NCBI RefSeq assembly: GCF_000012925.1
Contig: NC_007517.1
Location: 3,300,001 to 3,332,000 of the forward strand
Direction of reading: 5' to 3'
Source: Geobacter metallireducens GS-15
GTDB taxonomy: Bacteria; Desulfobacterota; Desulfuromonadia; Geobacterales; Geobacteraceae
Length of the DNA stretch: 32,000 bases
In this document: positions 10,418 to 27,521 of the stretch, one piece after another
How the letters are laid out: each line of letters begins with the position of its first letter
How positions within the stretch are numbered: position 1 is the first letter of the stretch
Translations under genes and position numbers: made by a program
Notes under the pieces: generated by a model
Databases searched by the model: none
What the model saw: the letters and a program-made list of their open reading frames with translations, nothing else
What the model was told of the DNA's origin: nothing

Positions 10418-12049
10418 ATGCCCTTGCGCCTGTCGCTCATTGCCAAACTCTCCCTCGCCATAAGCCTCATCCTCCTCGCCACCATGGGGCTCTTTGCCTA
10501 CATTAACGTAGAACAACTCGAAAAGCTCCTCTACGAGGAGGCGGTCATCGATGCCGACAAGCTGAGCGAGACCATCATCCGCACCACCCACTACCACATG
10601 CTCGAAAACAACCTGAAACGGGCCTACCAGATCATCGACGAGGTAGGGTCCCAGCGGGGAATCATTGACCGCATCAGGATGGTCAACAAATTTGGCCTCG
10701 TAACCCACTCCACGGACTCAAAGGAGAAAGGCCTCTATCTGGACAAGAAGGCCGAGGCGTGCAGCATGTGCCACTCGGGGCCATCTCCCCTTGTCCACGC
10801 TACCACCATGAATCGCAGCCGTCTCTTCACCAACAGGGAGGGGAAAGAGGTCCTGGGCCTCGCCAAGGCAATCTATAACGAGGAGCGTTGCTACACGGCC
10901 CCCTGTCATTTTCACCCCAAGGAGGCCAAGGTCCTCGGCGTCCTGGACGTTATCGTTTCCCTCGACCAGATGCACCAGAAGGTATACGCCTATCGCAACG
11001 AGATCATCGTTCTCACGGTCCTGCAGATCGGCCTTATCGCCCTCTGTCTCACCTTCCTCACCCAGCGCCTGGTCAACCGGCCGGTCCGGGCGCTGGTCAA
11101 CCATGCCCATTTGATAGGCGGCGGCGACCTCGACGCCACGGTGAGGGTCAAGAACCGCGACGAGCTCGGCGAACTGGCCGATGCCTTCAACGGCATGACA
11201 ATAAACCTGAAAAAGGCACGGGTAGAGTTGGAGGATTGGGGCAAAAACCTTGAAGACAAGGTGGAAGAGCGGACCCAGGAGATCAAGAAAATCCAGTCGC
11301 AGTTGGTCCACTCCGAGAAGCTCGCCTCCCTGGGAGAACTTGTGGCAGGGATTGCCCACGAGATCAACAACCCCCTGACCGGCATCCTCGTCTTCGCGTC
11401 GCTGCTTGCCAGCGATTCGAAGCTCGATCCGTCCCTGAAGGGGGACCTGGACCTGATCGTCAAGGAAACCCAGCGCTGCGCCCGAATCGTGAAGGGGCTG
11501 CTCGATTTCTCCAGGGAATCGATGCCCCAGAAAAAGCCCTCGTCCCTGAACGCCATCATGGACGCAACACTGACGCTGGTCTGCAACCAGTCGAGCTTCC
11601 ACGATATCAACGTCATCAAGGAGTACAACCCCGACATCCCCGAGATGAACCTCGACCCGAACCAGATCGAGCAGGTGTTTATCAACCTGCTCCTGAACGC
11701 CTGCCACGCCATCGGGGGTCCTGGGGAGATCAGGATCAGAACCGGCTTCGACCAGGAGCGGGAAGAGGCCTACGCCGCCATTACCGACAACGGCTGCGGG
11801 ATTCCCGAGGAACATTTATCCAAAATATTCGACCCCTTCTTTTCCACCAAGGAAAACAAGGGTACCGGCCTGGGACTTTCGGTTTCCTACGGAATTATCG
11901 AGGGCCACGGTGGGAGAATCGAGGTCCGGAGCACCATGGGAGCGGGGACCACCTTCACCTGCTGGCTGCCGCTCAACCATGACAGGGCAACGGCTACGGC
12001 CGAAGCGGCGGCGGCCAATCAGGCGGCTCCCTTGCCGGAATCCTCCTGA
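10418..12049 (+). CDS. Sensor histidine kinase with periplasmic haem-c sensor domain, HAMP, HisKA and HATPase
   Basis: 543 aa. TM1, then a periplasmic region with CSMCH (10760..10774) and CYTAPCH (10889..10909), then TM2 and HAMP (DELGELADAFNGM). H-box AHEINNPL, N-box LLLNACHA, G-boxes DNGCGI and GTGLGLS. Confidence 0.85.
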   Translation: MPLRLSLIAKLSLAISLILLATMGLFAYINVEQLEKLLYEEAVIDADKLSETIIRTTHYHMLENNLKRAYQIIDEVGSQRGIIDRIRMVNKFGLVTHSTDSKEKGLYLDKKAEACSMCHSGPSPLVHATTMNRSRLFTNREGKEVLGLAKAIYNEERCYTAPCHFHPKEAKVLGVLDVIVSLDQMHQKVYAYRNEIIVLTVLQIGLIALCLTFLTQRLVNRPVRALVNHAHLIGGGDLDATVRVKNRDELGELADAFNGMTINLKKARVELEDWGKNLEDKVEERTQEIKKIQSQLVHSEKLASLGELVAGIAHEINNPLTGILVFASLLASDSKLDPSLKGDLDLIVKETQRCARIVKGLLDFSRESMPQKKPSSLNAIMDATLTLVCNQSSFHDINVIKEYNPDIPEMNLDPNQIEQVFINLLLNACHAIGGPGEIRIRTGFDQEREEAYAAITDNGCGIPEEHLSKIFDPFFSTKENKGTGLGLSVSYGIIEGHGGRIEVRSTMGAGTTFTCWLPLNHDRATATAEAAAANQAAPLPESS

Positions 12050-12140: not shown

Positions 12141-13553
12141 TCAATTGTTCATCTGACTTCGCACTGAGATCCGCAGTTTTTTAAGCAACGCCTGGAAGTT
12201 GGGCCGAAGCATACCCGTTTCCTCAGCAGCCCGGGTAATGTTCCAGTTGTTGCGTTTGAGGGCCTGGAGGACAAAGGCCTTTTCGATGGGTTCCACGGCT
12301 CGCTCCCGAATCTGCCGCTTGGTCTCCTTCAACTCCTCGACGTTCTGGGGGACATAGGCCGCAACTCCGGTCCCCTCGCTTCCGGAGAGACGCAGTTCCA
12401 GATCTTCCTTCTGGATCAAATCCTCCTCGGCAAGGACCACGGCCCGCTCGATGATGTTCTCCAACTCCCGTACGTTGCCGGGAAACGTGTAATCCTCCAG
12501 GAGTGCCATGGCGTCAGGCGCCAGTCCCCGGATTTCCCGCCCCATCTCCTCGGAAAACTTCTTGAGGAAGAAGGCGATGAGGAGCGGCAGATCCCCCTTG
12601 CGCTCACGCAGGGGAGGAAGGTCTATGGGAATAATGTTCAGGCGGAAGAAGAGGTCTTCCCGGAAGGTCCCCTGGGGGACCAGGGTCCGGAGGTTCTTGT
12701 TGGTGGCAGCCACGAGGCGGATGTCGATGGGGACCGGCTGGGTGCCGCCGATGGGGGTGATCTCCCGCTCCTGAAGAACCCGCAGGAGCTTCGCCTGGGT
12801 GGTGAGGCTTATGTTGGATATCTCGTCCAAGAAGAGGGTGCCGCCGTCAGCCACCTTGAAGAGTCCGGTTTTCGTCTGGATCGCACCGGTGAACGATCCT
12901 TTCACGTGGCCGAACAATTCGCTTTCCAGGAGGTTCTCGGCCAGGGACGTACAGTCGACGGCAACAAAGGGATTTTCGCGGCGGTTGCTGTGGTTGTGGA
13001 TGGCCCGGGCAACCAGCTCCTTCCCGGTACCGCTCTCGCCGGTGATGAGAACGGTGCTGTCGGTGGGGGCAACCTGGATGATGCGCCGGTAGACCTTCTG
13101 GATTTCCTTGCTCTCCCCCACGAAGAGATCGAAGCCGTGGTGCTCTCCCAGCTCCTTCTTCAGAAAGATGTTCTCAATCAGGACTGCACGCTGATCGAGA
13201 GCTTTCCTCACTTTCTCCGTAATCTGCTCGGGGGTAAAGGGTTTGGCGATGTAGTCGAAGGCACCGTTCTTCATGGCCTCCACAGCGGTGTCGACGGTTG
13301 AGAAGCCGGTAATGATGATAACCGGAACTTCCGGCTGCAGAACCTTGATTGCCTTGAGAACCTCCATGCCGCTCATGCCGGGCATCTTCAGGTCGGTAAT
13401 CACAAGACTGAAGTTTTCCTCCTGCATCCGTTCGAGGGCAATCTGCCCGCTGGCCGAGGTCTCCACATGGAATCCCTCCTTCTCCAGGATGCGCCGCAGT
13501 CCCTCGCGAATAACCGCTTCATCGTCCACCACAAGAACATCAATGTTTTCCAT
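12141..13553 (-). CDS. bccR: Sigma-54-dependent response regulator (NtrC family: REC, AAA+, Fis-type HTH)
   Basis: REC with a canonical DD pocket, phospho-Asp (VITDLKMPG), T and K. Walker A GESGTGKE, GSFTGA loop (GAFTGA variant) and a C-terminal HTH. ATG at 13553 has a GGAAGGTGG SD; the ORF track begins at an upstream GTG (13559). The symbol rests on recalled synteny with G. sulfurreducens GSU0598 and is tentative. Confidence 0.8.
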   Translation of the reverse strand: MENIDVLVVDDEAVIREGLRRILEKEGFHVETSASGQIALERMQEENFSLVITDLKMPGMSGMEVLKAIKVLQPEVPVIIITGFSTVDTAVEAMKNGAFDYIAKPFTPEQITEKVRKALDQRAVLIENIFLKKELGEHHGFDLFVGESKEIQKVYRRIIQVAPTDSTVLITGESGTGKELVARAIHNHSNRRENPFVAVDCTSLAENLLESELFGHVKGSFTGAIQTKTGLFKVADGGTLFLDEISNISLTTQAKLLRVLQEREITPIGGTQPVPIDIRLVAATNKNLRTLVPQGTFREDLFFRLNIIPIDLPPLRERKGDLPLLIAFFLKKFSEEMGREIRGLAPDAMALLEDYTFPGNVRELENIIERAVVLAEEDLIQKEDLELRLSGSEGTGVAAYVPQNVEELKETKRQIRERAVEPIEKAFVLQALKRNNWNITRAAEETGMLRPNFQALLKKLRISVRSQMNN

Positions 13554-13758
13554 CGCCACCTTCCCTTTTCATCCCCCATACGGGTGGGTTACTCATTCAT
13601 AACAGACCGGCGACAAAGCAACAGACGATTAGTAGTTTCTAAATTACATCAACCACCCTGACAAGTCAAACACCTTATGGAGTCACACCTATCGACCGAA
13701 AGTCGACTCGCTTGAATTTATTACATGATTTCAATATGATACAACCGAAAACCCGACT

Positions 13759-13963: not shown

Positions 13964-13979
13964 TGGCATAACGGATGCA
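13964..13979 (+). promoter_or_regulatory. Sigma-54 (-24/-12) promoter of the small-protein/pseudo-REC/cytochrome operon
   Basis: TGGCAT-AACGG-ATGCA against consensus TGGCAC-N5-TTGCA. About 43-nt leader to the ATG at 14034. Lies divergent from the NtrC-type activator gene. Confidence 0.7.
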
Positions 13980-14033
13980 CTTGTAATGGTCAAGACGGCA
14001 CGCATCGTTATTCACATACCCAGGGAGAATGCC

Positions 14034-14273
14034 ATGAAAACCTCAGCGAGAGCACTCTTAGCACTTCTTGCAGCATCCGGTACAGCCCTTGCGGCAAGCG
14101 GTGCCGAATCCGAGGCCAACGGCTTCCTGGTGACGCTCTTCCTCGCGTTTGGTGCCCTGGTCATAGCTTTCCAACTGGCCCCCGGCCTGATCCTGTTCGG
14201 CTCCATGATGAAAGGGCTTTTCTCCAGGCCGGCCGACGAAACCGTCATGGGCGACTCCGGCAACGAACGGTAG
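14034..14273 (+). CDS. Small (79 aa) signal-peptide plus single-TM protein, copy 2
   Basis: Internal ATG of ORF 13986..14273, chosen because AGGGAGA sits 5 nt upstream and it aligns with the starts of the paralogs. MKTSARALLALLAASGTALA-ASGAESE, then a helix, then APGLILFGSMMKGLFS. Confidence 0.8.
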   Translation: MKTSARALLALLAASGTALAASGAESEANGFLVTLFLAFGALVIAFQLAPGLILFGSMMKGLFSRPADETVMGDSGNER

Positions 14274-14304: not shown

Positions 14305-14697
14305 ATGTTAGGACTTCTCATCGCAGACAACGATACTGTTGCTCGCAAGGAACTGGCGGATCTTTTCATCGAAGCAGGCTACAACGTTACCGTGACCAAC
14401 TCAGCGGCCAACGCCCTCTATGGGATACTCAAAAAAACCGCGCAGGTGGTCCTTATCGGGAGCGAATTCGACAATTTCAAGGCCGGCGATCTGATACCAC
14501 TCCTCAAGCAATGCGATCGGAACGTTACGATTATCCTCGTATCCGATGAGGACTCCCTCCCGGTCATGCGTAAGCTTCGCAAGGATGGGATATTCTACCA
14601 CGCACTGAGACCGGTCAAACCGGAGGACAAAGAAGAAATCCGCCAGGCCGTGCGATGCGCCTTCGAAAACCTTCTCAGCGCACGGCCGGCAAGATAA
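14305..14697 (+). CDS. Stand-alone receiver-fold protein lacking the phospho-acceptor Asp (pseudo-receiver)
   Basis: 130 aa with a GGAGAGAGGA SD. Hand alignment to CheY: the acidic pocket is partly kept (D8, D10), the phospho-Asp position is Gly52 (VVLIGSEF), the Thr position is Ser80 and the Lys position is Arg102 (ALRP). Confidence 0.75.
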   Translation: MLGLLIADNDTVARKELADLFIEAGYNVTVTNSAANALYGILKKTAQVVLIGSEFDNFKAGDLIPLLKQCDRNVTIILVSDEDSLPVMRKLRKDGIFYHALRPVKPEDKEEIRQAVRCAFENLLSARPAR

Positions 14698-14746: not shown

Positions 14747-14977
14747 ATGAAACGCTCATTGGCACAAACAATCGCAGTTTGGCTCGGCATGGCGGTTCCG
14801 GCGCTGGCAGCATCAGGAGCGCGGGAAGACAACAGCGGCATCTTCGTCTGGATATTCCTCGGATTTTGCGCCCTTATCGTCGTCGCCCAACTTCTTCCGG
14901 CACTGCTCATGATGCTCGGCTTCGCCAAGGGGCTCAAGAAGGAACAGCCCATGGCCAAAGAGTCTGCGCACCACTAA
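14747..14977 (+). CDS. Small (76 aa) signal-peptide plus single-TM protein, copy 3 (more diverged)
   Basis: AGGAGG SD 6 nt upstream. MKRSLAQTIAVWLGMAVPALA-ASGARED, then a helix (IFVWIFLGFCALIVVAQLLPALLMMLGF), then AKGLKK. Confidence 0.8.
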   Translation: MKRSLAQTIAVWLGMAVPALAASGAREDNSGIFVWIFLGFCALIVVAQLLPALLMMLGFAKGLKKEQPMAKESAHH

Positions 14978-15041
14978 ATGAATGCCGCACCGCGTCACGA
15001 GAAACCAACGTATTCACCGCACAGGAAAAGGAGGCGACGTA

Positions 15042-16094
15042 ATGACAACCCTACGATCAGCAACTCTCGTGCTATCGATTCTCCTGGTCTTCCCGATGGT
15101 GGCCCTTGCCGCCGCAGCTACCGAAGACGGATGCATCGGTTGCCACGGCGACAAGAATATCAGCGGCAAGAGCGGGTCCCATCTCTTCATCGACCCGGGC
15201 CAGTACAAGAAAACCAGCCATTCGATCATCGGCTGCACCTCTTGCCATGAATCGGTGACATCCAATCACCCGAATGACGGCATCAGGCCGTCGCGGGCCA
15301 CCTGCAAGGAATGCCACAGCCCGGTCCACCAGGAGTATGCCGCGAGTCTCCACGCCAATAACGCGGCGTGTGCCGACTGCCACAATCCCCATGCGGTGAA
15401 GCCGCCGGCGATGACGTCGGCCCGGGACATGAACGCCATGTGCGCCAAATGCCACGAAACCGCCAAGATGGTCAATGTTCACGCCAAATGGCTTCCGCAG
15501 GCAGACCTCCACATCGACGCCCTCCCCTGCATCACCTGCCACACCGGTTCGCAAAATTACGTCATAACCATGTACATCGAGAAACGGCTGGGGACAAAGG
15601 AGCACAGCGACTTCAAGGTGGCCAGCTTTGACGAGCTCACCCAGCTCGTGCCGGGCGACAAGGACGTGAAAGCCCTTATCGACACCAATGGCGACAACTT
15701 CATCTCCCTGGCTGAGCTTCGGTCCTTCAACCGCAATTCGAAGCATGACGACATGAGACTCTGGGGAATGATGACCCCCGAAAAGGTAACCCACAGCTAC
15801 CAGATTCTGGACAACCGCTGGGACTGCACCTTCTGCCATGCCTCCGGCCCCAGGGCCATGCAGACGAGCTTCGTCGCCTTCCCGGAAAAGGGAGGCACCT
15901 ACACCCGCGTGGCCGTCGAGAAGGGAGCCGTCCTCGACGTCCTCTACGGGACTCCCGACTTCTACATGATGGGCTCCACCCGCAGCACGGCGCTCTCCAT
16001 CGTCGGCGGACTCATCGTCCTCGGCGGCATGGGGTTTGCCGGAGTGCACGGGACACTAAGATTCCTCACCAGAAAAAATAGAAAGGAGCACTAA
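15042..16094 (+). CDS. cbcA: Heptahaem c-type cytochrome with C-terminal membrane anchor (CbcA-like)
   Basis: ATG at 15042 (AAGGAGG SD) rather than the track start at 14982. Signal peptide; seven CxxCH motifs (CIGCH, CTSCH, CKECH, CADCH, CAKCH, CITCH, CTFCH); C-terminal [21 protein letters not shown]. The stop lies 2 nt before the cytochrome b start. The symbol rests on recalled synteny. Confidence 0.8.
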
Positions 16095-16096
16095 TC

Positions 16097-16771
16097 ATGA
16101 GCGCCCATAACGAGCAAGCATTGCATACAGAGCATGCGGAACACGCTGAGTATATCTACCTTACCCCAATGCCGGTCAGAATCTGGCACTGGATCAACGC
16201 CCTCGGCATCGTTACCCTCTGTGTCACCGGGCTCCAGATCAGGTTCCCCGAATACGTGAACATCTTCGGGACCTACAAAGCCGCCATCAGGCTCCACAAC
16301 ACCGCCGGCATCACCGTTTCCATCTTCTACGCAATCTGGTTCGCGTACTACCTGATCGTGAAGGGGAATCTCTTCAAGCTCTACGTCCCCAACACCTATG
16401 ACATAAAAATGGGAATTTTCCGGCAGGTGCTTTACTACTTCTACTACTTCTTCAAGGGGGGTCCGAGTCCGCACCACGCCACTCCTGACGACAAATTCAA
16501 CCCGATGCAGAAGGTGGCTTACATGGGGCTGATGCTCGTACTGCTCCCCCTGGTCATCCTGACCGGCATTCTCATCCTCAACGTTGCCCCCCTCAGAGAA
16601 ATGATCATGCTGCTGGGAGGCCTCAAAATTCTCGTCAGCGCCCATTTCCTGATCGCCTGCTGCTTCTGCGCCTTCCTCTTCGTCCATATCTACCTGGCAA
16701 CCATGGGGCACACGATGCTTGCCCACTTCAAGCCCATGTGGGACGGCTGGGAAGAGGTCAAGCACCACTGA
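16097..16771 (+). CDS. cbcB: Membrane dihaem b-type cytochrome (HydC/PhsC/FdnI-like; CbcB-like)
   Basis: 224 aa with about 4 TM helices and conserved His in helices (IWHW, RLHN, SAHF, FVHIY), as in the Ni/Fe-hydrogenase-type cytochrome b family. Appears translationally coupled to the upstream cytochrome c. Confidence 0.8.
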   Translation: MSAHNEQALHTEHAEHAEYIYLTPMPVRIWHWINALGIVTLCVTGLQIRFPEYVNIFGTYKAAIRLHNTAGITVSIFYAIWFAYYLIVKGNLFKLYVPNTYDIKMGIFRQVLYYFYYFFKGGPSPHHATPDDKFNPMQKVAYMGLMLVLLPLVILTGILILNVAPLREMIMLLGGLKILVSAHFLIACCFCAFLFVHIYLATMGHTMLAHFKPMWDGWEEVKHH

Positions 16772-16867: not shown

Positions 16868-16896
16868 TTGACTAATCTTGCTTCATTACCTATAAT
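16868..16896 (+). promoter_or_regulatory. Near-consensus sigma-70 promoter for the dodecahaem cytochrome
   Basis: TTGACT - 17 nt - TATAAT with an AT-rich upstream (UP-like) stretch. About 45-nt leader to the ATG at 16947, which has a GAGGAGG SD. Confidence 0.7.
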
Positions 16897-16946: not shown

Positions 16947-17936
16947 ATGAGATTCCGCTTCACCCTTCCCCTCGTGGCCTGTACACTCGCCGTTGCCGGT
17001 CTTGCCTTCGGCATCAGCATCAAAGACGTGGTCTTCACCACGAAGGACGCTGGCAAGATCGTCTTCAGCCATAAGGTCCATATCGGCAAGAAGGGTATCG
17101 AAAACAACTGCAAGGCCTGTCACCCTGCCATCTTCGACATGAAGAAGAAGGTGACCTACACCATGGCCGACATGGAAAAGGGAAAATCATGCGGCGCCTG
17201 CCATACCGGGAAAGATGGCGTATTCCCCCTCAAGGATTGCGCCCGATGCCACGCGGTGAAGGAAATCACCTACCAGGTGAAGTCCGCGGGTCCCACCCCC
17301 TTCAGTCACAAGAAACACCTGGCCAAGTACTCAGACTGCGGCGCCTGCCATCCCAAGCTCTTCAAGGCCGGCCACAACAAGCCGGTCACCATGGCCGAAA
17401 TGGAGAAAGGGAAGTCCTGCGGCGCCTGTCATAACGGCAAGTCGGCCTTCAGCGTGAATGAATGTGCACGCTGCCACCTGGTGAAGGAAGTGGGGCTCAC
17501 CTCAAAGGAAACCGGCAAGATCATTTTCAGCCACAAACTCCATGCAGCAAAGAGGAAGTGCGGAGAATGCCATAACAAGCTCTATGAAGCGGGCCGCAAC
17601 AAGCCGGTCGGCATGGCTGCCATGGAAAAGGGGAAATCCTGCGGGGCCTGCCACAACGGCAAGGGACTCTTCGACGTGAAGCAGTGTGCCAAGTGCCACC
17701 CCGTCAAAGCTGTAAACTTCAAAGTATCGGGAGCTGGACCGGTCAAATTCAGCCACGATGTCCACCTTGCGATGTACAGTTGCAACGCCTGCCACACCAA
17801 GATCTTCAAAGCGGGCCGCAGCGCCAAGGTAGTGACCATGTTCGAAATGGAGAAGGGGAAATCGTGCGGCGCCTGCCACGACGGCAAGAAAGCCTTCAGT
17901 GTACGCGAGGACTGCGTGAAATGCCACGACATGTAG
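16947..17936 (+). CDS. Periplasmic dodecahaem cytochrome c made of four c7-type trihaem domains (GSU1996/GSU0592 family)
   Basis: 329 aa with a signal peptide and twelve CxxCH motifs in four repeats. Each repeat has the pattern ..C.ACHP.(I/L)F... M(E)KGKSCGACH.GK ....C.(R/K)CH; the MEKGKSCGACH unit recurs 4 times at spacings of about 225 to 232 nt. Confidence 0.9.
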   Translation: MRFRFTLPLVACTLAVAGLAFGISIKDVVFTTKDAGKIVFSHKVHIGKKGIENNCKACHPAIFDMKKKVTYTMADMEKGKSCGACHTGKDGVFPLKDCARCHAVKEITYQVKSAGPTPFSHKKHLAKYSDCGACHPKLFKAGHNKPVTMAEMEKGKSCGACHNGKSAFSVNECARCHLVKEVGLTSKETGKIIFSHKLHAAKRKCGECHNKLYEAGRNKPVGMAAMEKGKSCGACHNGKGLFDVKQCAKCHPVKAVNFKVSGAGPVKFSHDVHLAMYSCNACHTKIFKAGRSAKVVTMFEMEKGKSCGACHDGKKAFSVREDCVKCHDM

Positions 17937-17972
17937 TAATTCAGGTCTCTTGCTGACGAAATGATCACCCAG

Positions 17973-17996
17973 GGGCGGGAGTTCCGACTCCCGCCC
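17973..17996 (+). terminator. Hairpin after the dodecahaem gene (possible weak terminator or attenuator)
   Basis: GGGCGGGAG-TTCCGA-CTCCCGCCC, a perfect 9-bp GC-rich stem. The trailing sequence TTGCATTAT is only weakly U-rich. Confidence 0.45.
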
Positions 17997-18057
17997 TTGC
18001 ATTATCGGCCGAACGGGTTATTCTCTAACTTAAAAGAACCTCATCCAGGGAGCGCCC

Positions 18058-18906
18058 ATGCTGAAAAGCTTCGCCGCCAAGGCAACCGTGCCGCCCGCCA
18101 TCGCCGTAACAGGATTCGTCGTAGTCTGTTGCATCCTCCTCTACTCGGTCATCAAGACCGACATGCTCAATGATGCCATAGAGCACGAAACCAATCTGGC
18201 CGGAACCATCGTCAAATCGGCCCGCTACGCCATGCTGAAGGACGACCGGGAGACATTACGCAACATCATTGACAACATAGGCCAGCAGAAGGGGGTTGAG
18301 CACACCCGCATCTTCAACAAGAAAGGGGTCATCATGTTCTCGGCCCACACCGAGGACGTGAACAAACTCGTCGACAAAAAGGCCGCTGGATGCATCGCCT
18401 GCCATACCGGCCCGGTTCCCCTCACCAGCATGGGAAGGATGGAACAGGCCCGACGCTACATCAACGAACAAGGCCACAGCGTCATCGCCATCACGGTCCC
18501 CATTTACAACGAACCCGATTGCTTCAACGCCGCCTGCCACGTCCACAGCCCCAACCTGAAACTTCTCGGCACTCTGGACATTGGCCTCTCGGAGGAACCG
18601 CTCCAAAAAACGCTCGGTACCCTGCGCGGCAGAATGATCGTCTTCTGCGTCATGGTTCTCATTCTCACGGTTGGGGGAGTCTCCGCGCTCCTGCTCCGCA
18701 ATGTCCTTCTTCCCATCAAGGAATTGGCCAACTATGTTGTTGCCATAAAAAGGGGCGACGCGAACAGAAAAGCTCCGGCCTATCGTGATGAAATCGGCGA
18801 ACTGGCCCGTTCGTTCGAGGAGATGGCAACCAGGCTGACGGCGACTCAGAATGAGTCGAAACAACAGCGGTCAGCCGAAGGCGACGGCGCCGACAGCCGT
18901 TCCTGA
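18058..18906 (+). CDS. Membrane haem-c sensor plus HAMP protein with no output domain
   Basis: 282 aa: TM1, a periplasmic domain homologous to the kinase sensor at 10418 (CIACH at 18391..18405, CFNAACH at 18520..18540), TM2, HAMP (DEIGELARSFEEMATRL), then about 20 residues and a stop. Confidence 0.8.
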   Translation: MLKSFAAKATVPPAIAVTGFVVVCCILLYSVIKTDMLNDAIEHETNLAGTIVKSARYAMLKDDRETLRNIIDNIGQQKGVEHTRIFNKKGVIMFSAHTEDVNKLVDKKAAGCIACHTGPVPLTSMGRMEQARRYINEQGHSVIAITVPIYNEPDCFNAACHVHSPNLKLLGTLDIGLSEEPLQKTLGTLRGRMIVFCVMVLILTVGGVSALLLRNVLLPIKELANYVVAIKRGDANRKAPAYRDEIGELARSFEEMATRLTATQNESKQQRSAEGDGADSRS

Positions 18907-19474
18907 TCCGTCGCTCATGGCCGACATCCGTGACCCATCCTCCATGAAGCGCTTCCAGCCCCCCCCTCCCAAGCCCGACGCAACGGGCACCCCCCCGGAC
19001 AGGGACGCGGTGCGACAGGAAACCGTTCAACGGATCAAACGACTCCGAAGCAAGTCGAACCGCGGCCTCTGGGCCATGGCTCTCTTCATCGCCGTCAGTA
19101 TCGTTGCGTTAGGGGACTTCAGCATCCTCCCCCCGCTCCCTCCATCGATCCGCGCAACCCTCGGAAAGCCACCCTCCGCCATCATGATCAGCGGAGCCCT
19201 CGTTCTCTATACTTTCTCGGCGATCATCCTCATCCTTTCGCGCATGATGGGAGGAAAGGAAGAGTACAGCGGTTTTGCCCATGTGGGATACCTCGCCGCC
19301 TTCTACGGCTTCTACCATTTCGCCAAGGCCCTCAATGAGAATTTTTGGGCGGTCTTTGTTGCAGGCGTCACCATCCTGGGGCTCGAAAGCTACCACATCT
19401 GGAACTTCTGCAATGAAGCGATCCGCCGCGAGCAGGAGGTTCTCGACTCCATCGAGCGGTTAAGAAAATCGTAG
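18851..19474 (+). CDS. Hypothetical integral membrane protein (about 4 TM) with Pro-rich N-terminus; start uncertain
   Basis: The 207-aa ORF overlaps the upstream gene by 56 nt. Alternative ATGs at 18917 and 18944 remove the overlap; none has a clear SD. The hydrophobic helices (LWAMALFIAVSIVAL, AIMISGALVLYTFSAIILIL, VGYLAAFYGFYHF, FWAVFVAGVTILGL) support that it is coding. Confidence 0.6.
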   Translation: MSRNNSGQPKATAPTAVPDPSLMADIRDPSSMKRFQPPPPKPDATGTPPDRDAVRQETVQRIKRLRSKSNRGLWAMALFIAVSIVALGDFSILPPLPPSIRATLGKPPSAIMISGALVLYTFSAIILILSRMMGGKEEYSGFAHVGYLAAFYGFYHFAKALNENFWAVFVAGVTILGLESYHIWNFCNEAIRREQEVLDSIERLRKS

Positions 19475-19583: not shown

Positions 19584-19595
19584 CACATAGAACCA

Positions 19596-19690
19596 ACTCG
19601 CTAGGGGAGTTTCGACTGAGAGTCCGACGCGCTGCTACGGACAACCCTTTGAACCTGATCCGGATAATGCCGGCGTAGGGAAGCGTTCCA
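19596..19690 (+). promoter_or_regulatory. TPP (THI-box) riboswitch
   Basis: CGCU-AGGGGAG...CUGAGAG...ACCCUUUGAACCUGAUCCGGAUAAUGCCGGCGUAGGGA-AGCG carries the conserved THI-element blocks, and P1 closes (CGCU/AGCG). Sits directly upstream of thiS. Confidence 0.9.
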
Positions 19691-19712
19691 CCATGGTCTA
19701 TTCCACGACCAC

Positions 19713-19736
19713 GGGCCGCTTCTGCGGCCTTTTTTG
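19713..19736 (+). terminator. Riboswitch expression-platform terminator
   Basis: GGGCCGC-TTCT-GCGGCC followed by TTTTTTG, between the aptamer and the thiS start. Confidence 0.7.
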
Positions 19737-23590: not shown

Positions 23591-25285
23591 ATGACCAAAA
23601 ACCTGCGCCTCGGCTCAAAACTGATCCGCTCCTCGCTCCTTGCGGGCTTCGTCATTGCCCTGGTGGGCATCATCTGCGCCTATAATGCCGGCGGCACCCC
23701 CGCGACCCAGGGATACGCCCGGCTAACCCTGGGCATCTCCCTCATCAATGCGCTTCTTTTTCTCTTTGTCCTCTGGATGTTCACTGCCAGAAAAATGGTC
23801 GTCCGTGTCGGCAAATTGGCCGGTGCCATGGATCGTGGCGCCGAGGGCGATCTGACAATATCTGTACGGGATGATACCGAGGACGAACTGGGACTGCTGA
23901 CTACCAACTTCAACGCCATGCTCCAGCACCTGGCCGCGACAGTCACCAAGGTGAAGTCATCGGTGACAGAACTGCGTACCATTGCTGCAACGGTACGGGA
24001 TGCGGCCGACCGGGGCGTTGCCACCGCGGAGATACAGGCCGAGGCGGTCCAGGGGACCACAGACGGCATCCATGCCATCGACCGGTCGGTCACTGACGTG
24101 GCCCTGTCCGTGGGGCAGCTTTCCCGCACCGCCATGGAGAACTCCTCTTCCATCCTCCAGATGTCGGCAAGCATCGAGGAAGTGGCCGACCACGTGGAAT
24201 CCCTGGCCAATGCCGTTGAAGAGGTGAGCTCTTCCATCATCCAGATGGCGACTGCCGAGAAGGAGATAGGCTCCAACGCCGCCACCCTCATGAACGATGC
24301 CATGCGTACGGCGTCGCTGGTTGCCGAGCTTGACACCTCCATCAAGCAGATCGAGAAGAGCGCCGTGGAGACCGCGGCAATCTCCGAGGAAGTGCTGAGG
24401 GATGCCGAGCAGGGGCGCGAGGCTGTGGAGAGCACCATCTCCGGCATCGACGAGATCCGTCGTTCCTCACGCTCCGTGGGTGAAACCATCGAAACCCTGT
24501 CACAGCGGGCGGGCCACATCGGCACGATCATTTCGGTCATCAACGACATCGCGGAGCAGACCAAGCTTCTGGCCCTCAACGCCTCCATCATCGCGGCCCA
24601 GGCAGGGGAGCACGGCAAGGGATTCGCGGTGGTTGCCAACGAGATCAAGGAACTTGCCAAGCGGACCACCAGCTCTACCGGAGAGATCGGCACCATTATC
24701 ATGGGGCTGCGGGAAGAGAGCGAGCGCGCGGTTGCGGCCAACAAGCATGCGGAACTGCGGATCACTGAAGGGGAGAAACTTTCGTACCGTTCGGGCGAGG
24801 CTCTCGACAAGATCGTCGACGGCGTCAAAATGGCTGCGGGGCAGGTGAATGACATCGCCCGCACCACCGTGGAGCAGGCCCAGAGCAGCGAGCACATGCG
24901 GAACGCCGTGGAGCGGGTGGCGGGAATGGTGGAGCAGATCGCCCGGGCCACCGAAGAGCAGACCTACGGCACAGGGCTCATCATGGATGCCGTAGCCCGT
25001 ATGAAGAGCGTCACGTCTCAGGTGCGGCAGTCCAGCCAGGAGCAGCGCAACGCGAGCACCCTCATCGTCAGGTCCAGCGAGGGGATCACCGGGATGATCG
25101 CCACGATCCGCCAGGCCTGCCAGGTCCAGACCCAGAGCACCGAAAAGATTGTCCAGGCGGTGGACAACATGGCGCGGACATCCGAGGGGAATGTGGAGAC
25201 CACCCGGGTCATGGAAAATGCCGTCAACGGCCTCACCCGCCAGATCGACGAACTGAACGAGGCAATGACCGGGTTCCGGGTTTAG
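23591..25285 (+). CDS. Methyl-accepting chemotaxis protein with minimal periplasmic loop (2 TM, HAMP, MA domain)
   Basis: 564 aa with a GAAGGAGA SD. Two TM helices separated by about 10 residues, HAMP ([13 protein letters not shown]) and the conserved hairpin tip [37 protein letters not shown]. Confidence 0.9.
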
Positions 25286-25294
25286 GGCTTGCTA

Positions 25295-27385
25295 TCAGTC
25301 GTCGGCCCGGTAGCCGATCCTGACCGCTCCCCAGTGTTTCCCGCCGACTGTTATGGGCGTTGACAGGTCGTTCATGACCTCCCCCGTGTCCCGCAGATAG
25401 GTCTGGAGCAGAAAGCTCTGGGTATGGGTGGCGCAACGGATGCCGGTCCGGTCGTTGAAGATCCGCTTGGTGCGGTTGTGGTCCTTGTCCACGGCGACGT
25501 CGCCGGTCAGGGGGCGGGAATAGCGCAGGTTGTGGGAGGGGCAGTACCCCTCGCGATCGACACAGATGGCATAGTACACCCCACTGTCCCGGCCCAGGAT
25601 CTCCTCCTGAACCGGCGAGACGAGTTCGTCAAAGAACCGGTCGAAGGGGGTACGGTACTTCTGGGGAGTGGTGTTCGGAATCGGCGTGTAATCGGTGCTG
25701 AAGAGGGCATCGATGGTGATCTTCCGGTCCTCCAGGGCCTTCTCTATGACCGCCGTCGCCCGGTCCCGCAGCTCCGCGGCATACCCCTTGACGGCATCAT
25801 GGTAGCACCCCACGCTGAACCGGCCCACGGTCCCGTAGATTTTCTCGGCTGTTTCCGACAACTCGCGGAAGATGCGGGCCGTCTCCTCCATCTGGCCGTT
25901 CACCGCCCCTGCCGTGGCCGACACCTGGCCGATCTTCTCCGTGATCTCGACGGTCGTGGCACTCTGCTCCTCAGTGGCCGTGGCAATCTGGCTGATCATG
26001 TCCGTTGAATCGGTCGCCAACCGCAGGATCCCCTCCAGTTGCTGGCGGGCATGCCCCGCCTTCTCGACCCCTTCCTCAACCCTCGTTTTCCCCTCGCCAA
26101 TGGATGTCACCACCGTCCCGATCTCTTCCTGGATGCTCCGGACAATGGCGGCGATCTGTCTTGTGGACGTGGCGGTGCGATTTGACAGGGTCTTCACTTC
26201 GTTGGCCACCACCGCAAAGCCCCGCCCCGCATCGCCGGCCCGGGCAGCCTCGATGGCCGCGTTGAGGGCCAGGAGATTGGTCTGGTCGGCGATATCCTCG
26301 ATAATTCCCACGATCTCGCCGATCTGCCCCGACGAAGTCTCCAGCTTCCCCATGGCTCCCAGGGTGCCGAGGACGCTGGTCCGGATCTGGTCGATGCTCA
26401 GGGAGGTCTCCTCCACGGTCTCCATCCCCACTTTTGCAGCCTGATCCACGTTAATGGAGAGCTGCGCCGCCCGCTGGGTGGTGGCTGCCACATCGTTCAG
26501 GGTAGCCGACATCTCCTCCGACGCCACGGCCACCGAGGTGGAAAGGTCCTTCTGTTCCGCCGTAGAGGCGACGAGCCCTTCGGTCCCCTTGACGGTGCGG
26601 CAGGCCGATATGGCGATGTGCCCCGCCTGGCTGTAGAGGGATGTCACAATCTCCCGCAGCTTGGCGATCAGCATGTTGACCCCCTCGGCAAGCTCTCCGA
26701 GCTCGTCGCCGGTCCGGACTGGCATCTGTGAGGTCAGATCCCCCTCGCCGTGGGCGATGACCTGGATCCTGTCGGACAGCTCACGGATGTTCCGCACGAT
26801 GGTCTGACGGAAGAAGAGGTACAAGGTACCAAGCATGATCAGGAAAAAGACAAAGCCGGTTGCAGCCAGGGCTATGGTAAGGTTCCGCGCGCTGACATAC
26901 CCATCCTGAAGCGAGGTGGTGAGAAGAATCGCACCGGTGTACCGGGCTCCCTTCTCGTGGCAGGTGGTGCAGCGCTCCTCGTTCACCAGGGGGACGGCAA
27001 AGCTCAGGACATGCTTCCCGTCATCCAGGGTATGGCGCAGTTCCCGGGCACGGCCTGCCGCAATGGCTTCCGCAACCACCGGGTCAGCAGCCGCGCCCTT
27101 GTCCCCCCACGGCTTTGCGGCGGGACCGAACACCTTGAGGTCGAGCACCTGCCCCTTCCCTTTCACCCGTGCGATATATCGGTTTATCACCGCCATGTCG
27201 CCCGACATCATGTTTTCAGCGATTTCCTGGGAGATGAGGGTTGAGAGGCCGCGGGTATTGGCAGCCTGAAGTTTCATCAGGGCGGTGTATTCAAGCCAGA
27301 TGGCGGTTACACCAAGGATGGCGAATCCCACGCAAAGGGTTGCTCCAATAATCCCCAGCACCTTGAACTCGAGCCTGTTACGCAT
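25295..27385 (-). CDS. Methyl-accepting chemotaxis protein with periplasmic haem-c sensor and an extra C-terminal domain
   Basis: Start moved to the internal ATG at 27385 (GGAGAGAGG SD; [11 protein letters not shown]..), giving 696 aa. Periplasmic CTTCH (26957..26971), HAMP ([13 protein letters not shown]) and MA tip [38 protein letters not shown] further domain of about 170 aa follows the MA domain (25298..25810). Confidence 0.9.
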
Positions 27386-27521
27386 TATGACACCTCTCTC
27401 CGATAACATGACCGCTAGTATCTTATCGGTACCGAGAGGCAATCCTTTAATCGATTTCAGAAACGTGTTTGATTATTAATTAGTTTAGACAGGATTACGA
27501 AGTGTTACGGGCAGGCTCAAC

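What the first reader, a model, noticed from the sequence alone, without database searches (positions are those of the whole stretch)
18058..18906. Haem-sensor plus HAMP protein with no transmitter: a truncated paralog of the kinase sensor
Seen in sequence: the periplasmic region aligns along its length with that of the kinase at 10418. Examples are ..KSARYAMLKDDRETLRNIIDNIGQQKGV.. against ..RTTHYHMLENNLKRAYQIIDEVGSQRGI.., DKKAAGCIACHTGPVPL against DKKAEACSMCHSGPSPL, and IYNEPDCFNAACHVH..LLGTLD against IYNEERCYTAPCHFH..VLGVLD. The protein ends about 20 residues after the HAMP domain. Inference: it cannot signal by phosphotransfer on its own. It might heterodimerise with the full-length kinase (as decoy or modulator), signal to the overlapping downstream membrane protein, or be a kinase remnant kept for haem or redox buffering.
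Basis: partly seen in the sequence, partly recalled or inferred. Interest (0 to 1): 0.65.

Follow-up and report, generated by a model that had tools for sequence, protein, structure and literature searches.

The report
CbcD: output-less di-haem sensor protein
This gene is the already catalogued CbcD (GSU0591/Gmet_2931) of the Geobacter Cbc5 respiratory locus, an old, conserved membrane protein with a two-haem sensor and a HAMP domain but no kinase, always paired with the small membrane protein CbcE, and its function has never been tested.

Summary
The ORF at 18058-18906 encodes 282 aa: TM1, a periplasmic Cache-like domain with CXXCH and CX4CH, TM2, a HAMP domain and a 21-residue tail. It aligns with the kinase at 10418 (30% identity over 262 aa, E 7e-40).

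It is not a recent truncation. All 80 genomic orthologs and the best 120 database relatives lack an output domain. dN/dS is 0-0.17 outside the tail, and no kinase remnant follows the gene. The output-less proteins form their own old clade, separate from the clade of neighbouring kinases.

The gene is CbcD of the Cbc5 cluster (GSU0591/Gmet_2931). The literature already lists it as a HAMP-containing two-haem cytochrome and as the paralog of GSU0599. Its function is untested.

New points:
- CbcE follows directly in 73 of 75 loci and in 5 of 5 distant clade members.
- The apparent cbcD/cbcE overlap is an ORF-calling artefact.
- The TM helices and sensor are far more conserved than the HAMP, the reverse of the kinase.
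- CbcD-CbcE persists where CbcAB is replaced.

Best reading (about 0.45): a periplasmic haem receptor that signals in trans through CbcE, like the Cache_heme-HAMP (CHH) receptors. The main rival is an electron-transfer subunit.

The parts
18058..18906 (+). cbcD CDS (282 aa plus stop), the finding itself; ortholog of GSU0591/Gmet_2931
   Evidence: ORF. A GGGAG ribosome-binding site lies 7 nt upstream of the ATG. A 100%-identical database protein and 1142 relatives were found. The 77%-identity cluster contains G. sulfurreducens PCA AAR33922.1. Gene order matches the published cbcABCDE order.
18091..18159 (+). TM1 (aa 12-34), unusually conserved: T18 G19 F20 V21 C24 L27 L28 Y29 are invariant
   Evidence: Alignment A1. 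Column homogeneity is 0.70 over 78 orthologs. dN/dS is about 0.
18160..18633 (+). Periplasmic single-Cache (PAS-like) domain carrying two c-type haem motifs (aa 35-192)
   Evidence: The AF2 model has a long helix and five strands. Foldseek hits are WalK, KinD, DctB and CitA Cache domains. PF21563 matches all 32 scanned orthologs at E <= 0.01; the window protein scores 25 bits against a cut-off of 27. hhalign against the window's GSU0582-like MCP gives probability 94.9%.
18391..18405 (+). Haem motif 1, C112-IA-C115-H116 (CXXCH), the extra site relative to mono-haem sCache_heme sensors
   Evidence: Sequence. Invariant in A1. It aligns to a Cys-free loop of the mono-haem MCP.
18520..18546 (+). 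Haem motif 2, C155-FNAA-C160-H161 (CX4CH), followed by invariant H163; homologous to the single CXXCH of GSU0582-type sensors
   Evidence: Sequence. Invariant across CbcD proteins and kinases. It aligns with [10 protein letters not shown] of the MCP.
18634..18699 (+). TM2 (aa 193-214), highly conserved: F196 M199 G206 G207 V208 A210 L212 R214
   Evidence: Homogeneity is 0.68, against 0.39 for the kinase TM2.
18688..18840 (+). HAMP domain (aa 211-261; P219, DEIGELA motif) with nothing fused behind it
   Evidence: Pfam HAMP, 39.2 bits. Homogeneity is 0.26-0.33. dN/dS is 0.10-0.17. HAMP is detectable in only 16 of 32 orthologs.
18841..18903 (+). Unconserved C-terminal tail of 21 aa
   Evidence: Homogeneity 0.09. 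dN/dS 0.17-1.25. Length is variable in A1.
18917..19474 (+). cbcE: 4-TM membrane protein, the constant partner gene. The start is ATG 18917 or 18944, not 18851.
   Evidence: Adjacent in 73 of 75 loci and in 5 of 5 distant clade members. Homologs are 150-199 aa. The AF2 model has pLDDT 82 and four TM helices, with no PDB fold match.
16947..17936 (+). cbcC: dodecahaem cytochrome with four c7-type triheme domains, directly upstream
   Evidence: Pfam and NCBIfam.
17970..17999 (+). Conserved 13-bp GC-rich stem-loop between cbcC and cbcD with no U tract. It may be an attenuator or an mRNA-end element (inference).
   Evidence: Fold. Conserved with compensatory changes in L001-L005.
16868..16896 (+). 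Sigma-70-like promoter (TTGACT-17-TATAAT, 11 of 12 matches) upstream of cbcC
   Evidence: This fits the published terminator after cbcB and the much weaker induction of cbcCDE than cbcAB.
10418..12049 (+). Paralogous two-haem sensor histidine kinase (GSU0599 type)
   Evidence: literature.
12141..13559 (-). Sigma-54-dependent response regulator (BccR type)
   Evidence: Pfam REC, Sigma54_activat and HTH_8. BccR is described.
14305..14697 (+). Stand-alone receiver (GSU0596 type) that lacks the phospho-acceptor Asp
   Evidence: Alignment with CheY and BccR: Gly in the window protein, and Gly (31) or Ser (16) in 47 orthologs.
14982..16771 (+). cbcA (heptahaem, 14982-16094) and cbcB (cytochrome b, 16097-16771)
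   Evidence: Pfam; literature.

Best explanation
The ORF is cbcD of the Cbc5 locus of a Geobacter, probably G. metallireducens. It is a real, old and conserved inner-membrane protein. From sequence and model, it has an N-in TM1, a periplasmic single-Cache domain with two covalent c-type haem sites (CXXCH and CX4CH), TM2, and a cytoplasmic HAMP that ends without any enzymatic output. M59, M128 and H163 are conserved candidate distal ligands.

Its constant partner is CbcE, a 4-TM protein of unknown fold encoded immediately downstream. This pairing is shown by gene order.

The mechanism I think most likely is inferred, not shown. CbcD is a dimeric periplasmic haem-based receptor. It reads the redox state of the periplasmic cytochrome pool, or a haem ligand such as NO. 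It passes the conformational change through its unusually conserved TM helices to CbcE inside the membrane. The HAMP serves as a dimeric foot or as a docking surface for a partner acting in trans. This is the logic recently shown for Cache_heme-HAMP (CHH) receptors. The likely target is control of the low-potential quinol-oxidase branch encoded in the same locus. That control could act on expression, through the paralogous kinase, BccR and the pseudo-receiver, or on activity.
For: Identity:
- The 77%-identity cluster holds the G. sulfurreducens PCA protein.
- Gene order HK-bccR-small-REC-small-cbcA-cbcB-cbcC-cbcD-cbcE-thiSGE is the same as in a G. sulfurreducens-type locus and in the literature.

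A real, functional gene:
- All 80 orthologous loci and the best 120 database hits are 259-361 aa with no output domain.
- dN/dS is about 0 for TM1, 0.05-0.10 for the periplasmic domain, 0.02-0.10 for TM2 and 0.10-0.17 for the HAMP.
- The protein is detected in G. sulfurreducens proteomes.

A signalling-type domain:
- The sensor domain has 911 representative relatives (E <= 0.001).
- Among the best 150, most of those longer than about 400 aa are roughly 500-560 aa, the size of the window's kinase.
- The fold matches WalK, KinD, DctB and CitA Cache sensors.
- The family profile matches the window's GSU0582-like haem MCP (probability 94.9%).

Partnership with CbcE:
- CbcE is adjacent in 73 of 75 loci.
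- Candidate start codons abut or overlap the cbcD stop in 12 or more loci.
- All 5 distant clade members (about 40% identity) are followed by a CbcE homolog, E <= 1e-52.

Constraint has shifted to the membrane:
- In CbcD, homogeneity is 0.70 for TM1 and 0.68 for TM2, against 0.26-0.33 for the HAMP.
- In the kinase the order is reversed: TM2 0.39 and HAMP AS2 0.69.

CbcD-CbcE does not depend on the type of oxidase:
- It persists where CbcAB is replaced by a module of a small cytochrome, a 4Fe-4S protein and a roughly 446-aa membrane protein.
- CbcB is present in only 20 of 49 loci.

Precedent:
- CHH receptors have an uncoupled HAMP that binds an operon-linked partner.
Against: No experiment on CbcD or CbcE exists in the literature searched.

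The HAMP is the least conserved structured part and is recognisable in only 16 of 32 orthologs. This is what a decaying relic in a purely redox or structural subunit would look like.

CbcE has no recognisable signalling or enzymatic fold, so the output remains undefined. Its cytoplasmic helical extensions are short in some relatives such as L083, which weakens a HAMP-docking model.

The mirror-tree comparison did not single out CbcE as the co-evolving partner.

The CbcD model has only moderate confidence (pLDDT 70), and haem geometry could not be examined.
Confidence: 0.45

Rival explanations
1. CbcD is what its annotation says: a membrane-anchored two-haem c-type cytochrome subunit of a menaquinol:cytochrome c oxidoreductase. 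CbcE would be a membrane (possibly quinol-site) subunit. The haems would relay or buffer electrons to CbcC and the periplasmic cytochromes. The HAMP would be an inherited, functionally idle appendage.
For: [quoted passage not shown] The conservation pattern fits, with haem sites, periplasmic domain and TM helices far more conserved than the HAMP. A multihaem cytochrome lies directly upstream in 34 of 68 loci. The sCache_heme study proposes redox roles for members that are not fused to signalling modules.
Against: The sensor domain is homologous along its whole length to domains that, among the longer database hits, sit mostly on kinase-sized proteins. The haem environment (M59, CX4CH, H163) is the same in CbcD and in the kinases. 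The cytoplasmic segment has never been lost in an old clade, and the HAMP is under purifying selection (dN/dS 0.10-0.17). CbcD-CbcE stays when the CbcAB oxidase is swapped for another module or is absent from the flanks. cbcCDE is not in the BccR-driven cbcBA transcript and is induced 2-4.5 fold, against 8-42 fold for cbcAB. CbcE has only one invariant His and no known cofactor motif.
Confidence: 0.3
2. CbcD is a kinase-less decoy or co-sensor that forms mixed dimers or higher oligomers with the paralogous GSU0599-type kinase. In this way it would tune BccR phosphorylation and cbcBA induction.
For: The sensor is paralogous, with the same haem motifs and candidate ligands. The kinase, BccR and a pseudo-receiver are in the same locus in most genomes: BccR in 38 of 49, pseudo-REC in 39 of 49 and HK in 28 of 49, the last limited by flank length. 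A partial correlation of HAMP distances with kinase catalytic-domain distances is 0.74, but this is not robust.
Against: Identity is only 28-30%. The TM helices and the N-terminal periplasmic helix, which usually form the dimer interface, are dissimilar. In an NJ tree without support values, the CbcD clade is not sister to the neighbouring kinase clade. At least 11 loci carry CbcD-CbcE with no such kinase or BccR within the fetched flanks of up to 8 kb. The near-universal neighbour is CbcE, not the kinase.
Confidence: 0.12
3. It is a pseudogene or a recent truncation of a kinase gene.
For: Only the architecture itself, a sensor and HAMP without a transmitter.
Against: Every ortholog is output-less. 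Purifying selection is strong. No kinase-like sequence lies downstream in any frame. The ribosome-binding site is good. The protein is detected by proteomics in G. sulfurreducens.
Confidence: 0.01

Closest known systems
CbcD (GSU0591 in G. sulfurreducens; Gmet_2931 in G. metallireducens), a subunit gene of the Cbc5 (cbcEDCBA) cluster
   Same: It is the same gene family and very probably the same gene. The G. sulfurreducens protein is 77% identical, the locus order is identical, and both have two haem motifs plus a HAMP.
   Different: Nothing differs structurally. The literature treats it as a putative cytochrome subunit (counted as 'monoheme' in G. metallireducens tables) and has not tested it. 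The obligate CbcD-CbcE pairing, its independence from CbcAB and the TM-over-HAMP conservation are worked out here.
CHH receptors (Cache_heme-TM-HAMP with an 'uncoupled' HAMP) of Pseudomonas azotoformans and relatives (Deshpande et al. 2026, bioRxiv 10.64898/2026.05.25.727664)
   Same: Both have a periplasmic Cache domain with covalent haem c, two TM helices and a C-terminal HAMP with no output domain. In both, the output is expected from a genetically linked partner.
   Different: CHH receptors have a DUF3365-type mono-haem domain. Their partner is a cytoplasmic PknB-like Ser/Thr kinase that clamps and phosphorylates the HAMP. CbcD has two haems and does not hit DUF3365. The window genes scanned and loci L083 and L087 carry no Ser/Thr kinase. 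The linked partner is a 4-TM membrane protein, and the HAMP is the least conserved part.
GSU0582/GSU0935 haem-containing MCP sensor domains (PDB 3B42, 3B47; Pfam PF21563; the sCache_heme family)
   Same: The periplasmic domains are homologous. hhalign against the window's own GSU0582-like MCP gives probability 94.9%, and PF21563 matches all 32 scanned orthologs. The MCP haem motif aligns with CbcD's CX4CH.
   Different: Those proteins have one haem and a full MCP signalling domain. CbcD has an extra CXXCH site, its ancestral site is CX4CH, and it has no output. The PF21563 score is just below the gathering cut-off (25 vs 27 bits).
GSU0599-type two-haem sensor histidine kinase (window 10418-12049), presumed partner of BccR
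   Same: Same architecture through to the HAMP, and the same two haem motifs and conserved Met and His residues. The pair is listed in the literature as the two two-haem signal transducers.
   Different: The kinase continues into HisKA and HATPase_c. Its HAMP AS2 is highly conserved and its TM2 is not, the reverse of CbcD. The two form separate clades.
Receptor-transducer pairs coupled through TM helices, such as sensory rhodopsin II-HtrII, and kinase-accessory membrane proteins such as WalK-YycH/YycI (named from my own knowledge; PDB hits)
   Same: A 2-TM HAMP protein works with a separate membrane protein through intramembrane contacts. HtrII TM2-HAMP gives a weak sequence hit (E 0.0027), and the full-length WalK model is the best fold match (E 3e-10).
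   Different: HtrII and WalK carry their own output domains. In CbcD-CbcE neither protein has one, and no interaction has been shown.

Membership tests
CbcD/GSU0591 orthologous group (Cbc5 cluster) | Close sequence relationship to the G. sulfurreducens PCA protein | tested here: met
   The cluster at 77% identity and 100% coverage contains AAR33922.1 (G. sulfurreducens PCA), 283 aa.
CbcD/GSU0591 orthologous group (Cbc5 cluster) | Position between cbcC (multihaem c7-type) and cbcE, downstream of cbcA-cbcB, with the kinase and sigma-54 regulator upstream | tested here: met
   Window gene order. The same order is seen in L001-L005, L083 and the G. sulfurreducens-type locus L087, and it matches the published Gmet_2928-2932 order.
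CbcD/GSU0591 orthologous group (Cbc5 cluster) | Two haem c motifs (CX2-4CH) plus a HAMP, with no output domain | tested here: met
   C112xxC115H116, C155x4C160H161 and HAMP at 211-261.
sCache_heme sensor domains (DUF3365/Tll0287, GSU0582/GSU0935) | Extracytoplasmic single-Cache fold | tested here: met
   The AF2 model (pLDDT 70) shows a long N-terminal helix and a five-stranded sheet. Foldseek hits are WalK, KinD, DctB and CitA Cache domains, E 5e-5 to 1e-2.
sCache_heme sensor domains (DUF3365/Tll0287, GSU0582/GSU0935) | Strictly conserved haem c motif at the family's characteristic position | tested here: met
   hhalign of the CbcD profile against the window's GSU0582-like MCP (probability 94.9%, E 4.4e-8) aligns the MCP's CTTCH with CbcD's CFNAACH. 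In CbcD the motif is CX4CH rather than CXXCH.
sCache_heme sensor domains (DUF3365/Tll0287, GSU0582/GSU0935) | Match to the family HMMs above threshold | tested here: inconclusive
   PF21563 scores 25 bits against a cut-off of 27 for the window protein, and all 32 scanned orthologs hit at E <= 0.01. DUF3365 is not among the families hit.
sCache_heme sensor domains (DUF3365/Tll0287, GSU0582/GSU0935) | Covalently bound haem in the protein | not testable with these tools
   This needs haem staining, mass spectrometry or UV-vis on the expressed domain.
CHH receptors (Cache_heme-TM-HAMP, uncoupled HAMP) | Architecture: periplasmic haem c Cache domain, two TM helices, and a C-terminal HAMP with no output | tested here: met
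CHH receptors (Cache_heme-TM-HAMP, uncoupled HAMP) | Operon-linked PknB-like Ser/Thr kinase with C-terminal helical HAMP-binding repeats | tested here: not met
   No Pkinase domain in any window gene scanned, nor in the precomputed Pfam lists of L083 and L087. The linked gene is cbcE instead.
CHH receptors (Cache_heme-TM-HAMP, uncoupled HAMP) | DUF3365-type mono-haem sensor that binds NO | tested here: not met
   There are two haem motifs and no DUF3365 hit. NO binding cannot be tested here.
Two-component sensor histidine kinases | HisKA (phospho-acceptor His) and HATPase_c domains | tested here: not met
   Absent from the protein, and absent from the downstream DNA in all frames.
HAMP domain proteins | Helix-connector-helix of about 50 aa after TM2, with the AS1 Pro and the AS2 acidic start | tested here: met
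   Pfam HAMP, 39.2 bits against a cut-off of 25, residues 211-261. P219 is invariant and D244-E-I-G-E-L is present. The AF2 model shows helix 179-231, a connector, and helix 244-275. Only 16 of 32 orthologs score at E <= 0.01.
Structural subunit of the CbcAB (Cbc5) menaquinol oxidoreductase | Obligate co-occurrence with CbcA and CbcB | tested here: not met
   A CbcB homolog is found within the fetched flanks in 20 of 49 loci. In many loci a cytochrome, 4Fe-4S and membrane-protein module stands in its place.
Structural subunit of the CbcAB (Cbc5) menaquinol oxidoreductase | Physical presence in the purified complex and electron transfer through its haems | not testable with these tools
   No biochemical data were found.

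The most novel reading that the evidence does not exclude
CbcD-CbcE is a previously unrecognised two-protein transmembrane redox receptor. CbcD is a two-haem Cache/HAMP protein with no output of its own. It reads the periplasmic cytochrome pool and hands the signal sideways, inside the membrane, to a dedicated 4-TM partner of novel fold. That partner then gates the activity or the BccR-dependent expression of the low-potential quinol oxidase. This would extend the new 'uncoupled HAMP' (CHH) principle to a membrane-embedded partner. It would also identify the missing sensor of the Geobacter switch at -0.21 V.
Probability: 0.3. Interest if true: 0.65.

Novelty: already known. Interest (0 to 1): 0.35.

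Why it matters
[quoted passage not shown] How the potential is sensed is not described in any of the papers read here.

The locus holds two homologous periplasmic two-haem sensors. One has a kinase. The other, CbcD, has none but is tied to CbcE. If CbcD-CbcE takes part in sensing or gating, it is a direct handle on that switch. It would also be a second, mechanistically different example of a receptor whose HAMP is not wired to its own output.

If CbcD is only a cytochrome subunit, it shows a sensor fold recruited for electron transfer. In either case the object itself is already catalogued. The value lies in a sharper, testable hypothesis, not in a discovery.

Tried and rejected
- **Frameshifted kinase continuation.** tblastn of the kinase C-terminus against the window found nothing near cbcD. 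Rejected.
- **Recent truncation or pseudogene.** Rejected on ortholog lengths, dN/dS and the clade structure.
- **Sequence search of the PDB with the family profile.** It gave only weak HAMP or coiled-coil hits and a marginal 3b42 hit (E 0.28). The fold search and hhalign were needed instead.
- **Mirror-tree and partial correlations** of CbcD regions against CbcE, kinase regions, BccR and the pseudo-REC over 25 loci. All are highly correlated through shared phylogeny and no partner stands out. Inconclusive.
- **Foldseek of the CbcE model against the PDB.** No match with E < 1. NCBIfam has no model for CbcD or CbcE.
- **Sigma-54 consensus scan of the window.** It found 34 matches against 29 expected, which is not enriched. 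Only the site at 13964-13978, upstream of the first operon gene, is positionally meaningful.
- **RNA-seq supplement of the CbcBA paper,** sought for GSU0590-0592 expression in the bccR deletion strain. It is not held.
- **Natural CbcD-CbcE fusions.** None appear among the best 120 hits of either protein or in the 80 loci. The 361-aa ORF in L074 is the cbcD frame running on across the start of cbcE, perhaps an assembly frameshift, and was not checked further.
- **Literature search for output-less HAMP proteins in general.** It gave little. The relevant CHH papers came from a haem-sensor search.
- **Structure prediction of a CbcD-CbcE complex.** Not possible with the single-chain tool.
Full report
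**1. What is in the sequence**

The ORF at 18058-18906 (+) encodes 282 aa and is preceded by a GGGAG ribosome-binding site. BLASTP against the 543-aa kinase at 10418-12049 gives 30% identity over 262 residues, E 7e-40.

Pfam finds HAMP at residues 211-261 (39.2 bits, cut-off 25) and weak Cache-type hits (PF21563, sCache_3_2, sCache_4). It finds no HisKA or HATPase_c, whereas the kinase has all three cytoplasmic domains. The protein stops 21 residues after the HAMP. tblastn with the kinase's C-terminal 278 residues finds nothing in any frame downstream.

**2. Which gene it is**

The neighbourhood, in order:
- a two-haem sensor kinase
- a divergent sigma-54 response regulator
- a small membrane protein
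- a stand-alone receiver
- a second small membrane protein
- a heptahaem cytochrome
- a cytochrome b
- a dodecahaem c7-type cytochrome
- the target ORF
- a 4-TM protein
- a TPP riboswitch, followed by thiS-thiG-thiE

This is the Cbc5 (cbcEDCBA) region of Geobacter together with bccR, as described by Joshi et al.. In G. metallireducens the genes are Gmet_2928-2932, cbcA to cbcE.

A 100%-identical database protein lies on a 3,997,420-bp contig. The 77%-identity cluster contains the G. sulfurreducens PCA protein AAR33922.1. A G. sulfurreducens-type locus shows the identical gene order.

The target is therefore CbcD (GSU0591/Gmet_2931). [quoted passage not shown] Reviews citing Londer et al. 2006 list GSU0591 and GSU0599 as the two signal-transducer-like proteins with two CX2-4CH motifs. 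I found no functional study of CbcD or CbcE, and a 2026 review says the role of Cbc5 beyond CbcBA is unknown.

**3. It is not a truncation**

- All of the best 120 of 1142 database relatives are 268-332 aa.
- In 80 loci fetched from one-genome-per-species contigs, every complete CbcD is 268-361 aa and none has a kinase behind it.
- dN/dS against four close relatives is about 0 for TM1, 0.05-0.10 for the periplasmic domain, 0.02-0.10 for TM2, 0.10-0.17 for the HAMP and roughly neutral for the tail.
- An exhaustive HMMER search with the periplasmic domain finds 911 representative relatives. CbcD-like proteins of about 270-320 aa come first. After them, many of the longer hits are about 500-560 aa, the length of the window's kinase, and some are 760-814 aa.
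- In an NJ tree without support values, all output-less proteins form one clade, including representatives only about 40% identical. The locus-linked kinases form a separate clade.
- The CbcD sensor is closer to other kinases' sensors (39-44% identity) than to its neighbour's (28-30%).

The duplication and the loss of the transmitter are therefore old, and the architecture is maintained by selection.

**4. Anatomy**

The AF2 model (pLDDT 70) shows the following elements:
- TM1 running into a long periplasmic helix
- a five-stranded PAS/Cache core, with short helices at each haem motif
- TM2 continuous with HAMP helix AS1
- a connector
- helix AS2

Foldseek's best hits are a full-length WalK model (E 3e-10) and the Cache domains of WalK, KinD, DctB and CitA.

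The window also carries a GSU0582-like haem MCP at 25295-27442 (-), with a strong PF21563 match. hhalign of the CbcD family profile against it gives probability 94.9%. It aligns the MCP's single CXXCH with CbcD's CX4CH, so CbcD's CXXCH at 112-116 is the added second site.

Across CbcD proteins and kinases, M59 and CX4CH are invariant, and CXXCH and H163 are nearly so. The haem chemistry is therefore shared by the paralogs.

**5. The constant partner is CbcE, not the kinase or CbcAB**

Gene-order counts over the 80 loci:

| Neighbour of cbcD | Loci with it / loci with enough flank |
|---|---|
| CbcE directly downstream | 73 / 75 |
| Multihaem cytochrome directly upstream | 34 / 68 |
| BccR within the flank | 38 / 49 |
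| Pseudo-receiver within the flank | 39 / 49 |
| GSU0599-type kinase within the flank | 28 / 49 |
| CbcB within the flank | 20 / 49 |

- The exceptions to CbcE adjacency are L022, where bccR is inserted between the two genes, and L032.
- In many loci CbcAB is replaced by a small c7-like cytochrome, a 4Fe-4S protein and a roughly 446-aa membrane protein, while CbcD-CbcE stays.
- Candidate CbcE start codons abut or overlap the cbcD stop in at least 12 loci.
- Five distant members of the CbcD clade, fetched from metagenomes, are each followed by a CbcE homolog (E <= 1e-52 against the CbcE profile).
- CbcE relatives number only 269 clusters. All are 150-199 aa, and sources name them 'menaquinol oxidoreductase' or 'Yip1 family'.
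- Their lengths place the window's CbcE start at ATG 18944 or 18917.
- The CbcE model (pLDDT 82) has four TM helices, both termini probably cytoplasmic, and a conserved periplasmic loop. It has a single invariant His and no fold relative in the PDB.

**6. Where selection acts**

Column homogeneity over 78 CbcD orthologs and over the 26 linked kinases (the two sets are not the same loci):

| Region | CbcD | Kinase |
|---|---|---|
| TM1 | 0.70 | 0.55 |
| Cache core | 0.65 | 0.53 |
| TM2 | 0.68 | 0.39 |
| HAMP AS1 | 0.33 | 0.45 |
| HAMP connector | 0.26 | 0.38 |
| HAMP AS2 | 0.28 | 0.69 |
| Tail | 0.09 | 0.10 |
| HisKA | - | 0.70 |

Only 16 of 32 CbcD orthologs still score as HAMP. Constraint has moved from the HAMP to the membrane helices, which carry invariant T18, G19, F20, V21, C24, Y29 and G206, G207, R214. 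This fits a partner contacted in the membrane. It also fits a redox subunit whose HAMP is drifting. The data do not separate these two readings.

**7. Mechanism and rivals**

I favour (0.45) a receptor that signals in trans. The two-haem Cache domain would read periplasmic redox state or a haem ligand. The signal would pass through the conserved TM helices to CbcE, and the HAMP would act as a dimeric foot or docking site. The target would be the low-potential branch encoded in the same locus.

The precedent is the CHH receptors: Cache_heme-TM-HAMP proteins with an 'uncoupled' HAMP that binds an operon-linked Ser/Thr kinase. CbcD is not a CHH member. It has two haems, it does not hit DUF3365, and no Ser/Thr kinase is nearby.

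The rivals are:
- **Electron-transfer or buffering subunit, as annotated (0.30).** The conservation pattern supports it. Against it are the signalling ancestry of the domain, the retention of the HAMP under purifying selection, the independence from CbcAB, and separate transcription. There is a sigma-70-like promoter upstream of cbcC, a published terminator after cbcB, and 2-4.5-fold induction of cbcCDE against 8-42-fold for cbcAB.
- **Decoy or co-sensor of the paralogous kinase (0.12).**
- **Pseudogene (0.01).**

**8. Verdict**

The object is the already named and annotated cbcD, so its novelty as a thing is nil. What remains open, and moderately interesting, is its function. This analysis adds the obligate CbcD-CbcE pairing, the age and single clade of the output-less proteins, the inverted conservation profile, and the parallel with CHH receptors. 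Together these give a testable hypothesis about how Geobacter senses the potential at which it switches to CbcBA.

Noticed in passing
window 14305-14697 (+): The stand-alone receiver in the cbcBA operon (GSU0596 type) lacks the phospho-acceptor Asp. The window protein has Gly at the CheY D57 position, and 47 orthologs have Gly (31) or Ser (16). The CheY Y106 position is His in all 47. It is a conserved pseudo-receiver, so the locus holds two 'incomplete' signalling proteins.
   Followed up: partly
window 13986-14273 (+) and 14747-14977 (+): The two small proteins flanking the pseudo-receiver are paralogs (41% identity over 63 aa, E 3e-11). Each has a signal peptide and one TM helix, and neither has a Pfam or NCBIfam family. 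The first probably starts at the internal Met (about 14034). Both are conserved across most loci.
   Followed up: partly
window 17970-17999 (+): A 13-bp GC-rich stem-loop without a U tract lies between cbcC and cbcD. It is conserved in L001-L005 with compensatory changes. It may attenuate or stabilise the transcript and so set cbcC expression relative to cbcDE.
   Followed up: partly
window 16868-16896 (+) and 13964-13978 (+): A sigma-70-like promoter (TTGACT-17-TATAAT, 11 of 12) lies upstream of cbcC. A sigma-54-like -24/-12 element (TGGCATAACGGATGC) lies just upstream of the first gene of the cbcBA operon, consistent with published BccR/RpoN control. The sigma-54 pattern is not enriched in the window overall.
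   Followed up: no
window 19593-19698 (+): A TPP riboswitch (Rfam RF00059, 68.9 bits) lies upstream of thiS-thiG-thiE. The terminator-like hairpin at 19713-19730 is probably its expression platform. It marks the downstream edge of the cbc locus.
   Followed up: yes
window 25295-27442 (-) and 23591-25285 (+): There are two MCP genes. The first has a full-score haem sensor domain (PF21563, E 8e-44) and is GSU0582-like. The window therefore carries three homologous haem-Cache sensors with three outputs: kinase, MCP and none.
   Followed up: partly
loci L064, L009, L022, L063-L071 and others, between the second small protein and cbcD: In many Desulfuromonadales genomes the CbcA-CbcB pair is replaced by a small c7-like cytochrome, a 4Fe-4S (Fer4_11) protein and a roughly 446-465-aa membrane protein with no Pfam family. 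The regulators and CbcD-CbcE are kept. This looks like a module swap of the quinol oxidase inside a constant regulatory frame.
   Followed up: partly
window 14982-16094 (+), CbcA residues about 233-249: The periplasmic heptahaem CbcA contains an EF-hand-like loop ([16 protein letters not shown]; Pfam EF-hand_5, E 1e-3, below cut-off). The same weak hit is on record for the distant ortholog in L083.
   Followed up: no
window 18851-18944 (+): The longest cbcE ORF starts at 18851, inside cbcD. Its first 22-31 residues are not conserved, and homologs are annotated from the Met at 18917 or 18944. None of the three candidate starts has a clear Shine-Dalgarno sequence.
   Followed up: yes
locus L074 1724-2809: The CbcD reading frame runs on to 361 aa, across the start of cbcE, which sits in another frame. 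This may be an assembly frameshift and not a fusion.
   Followed up: no
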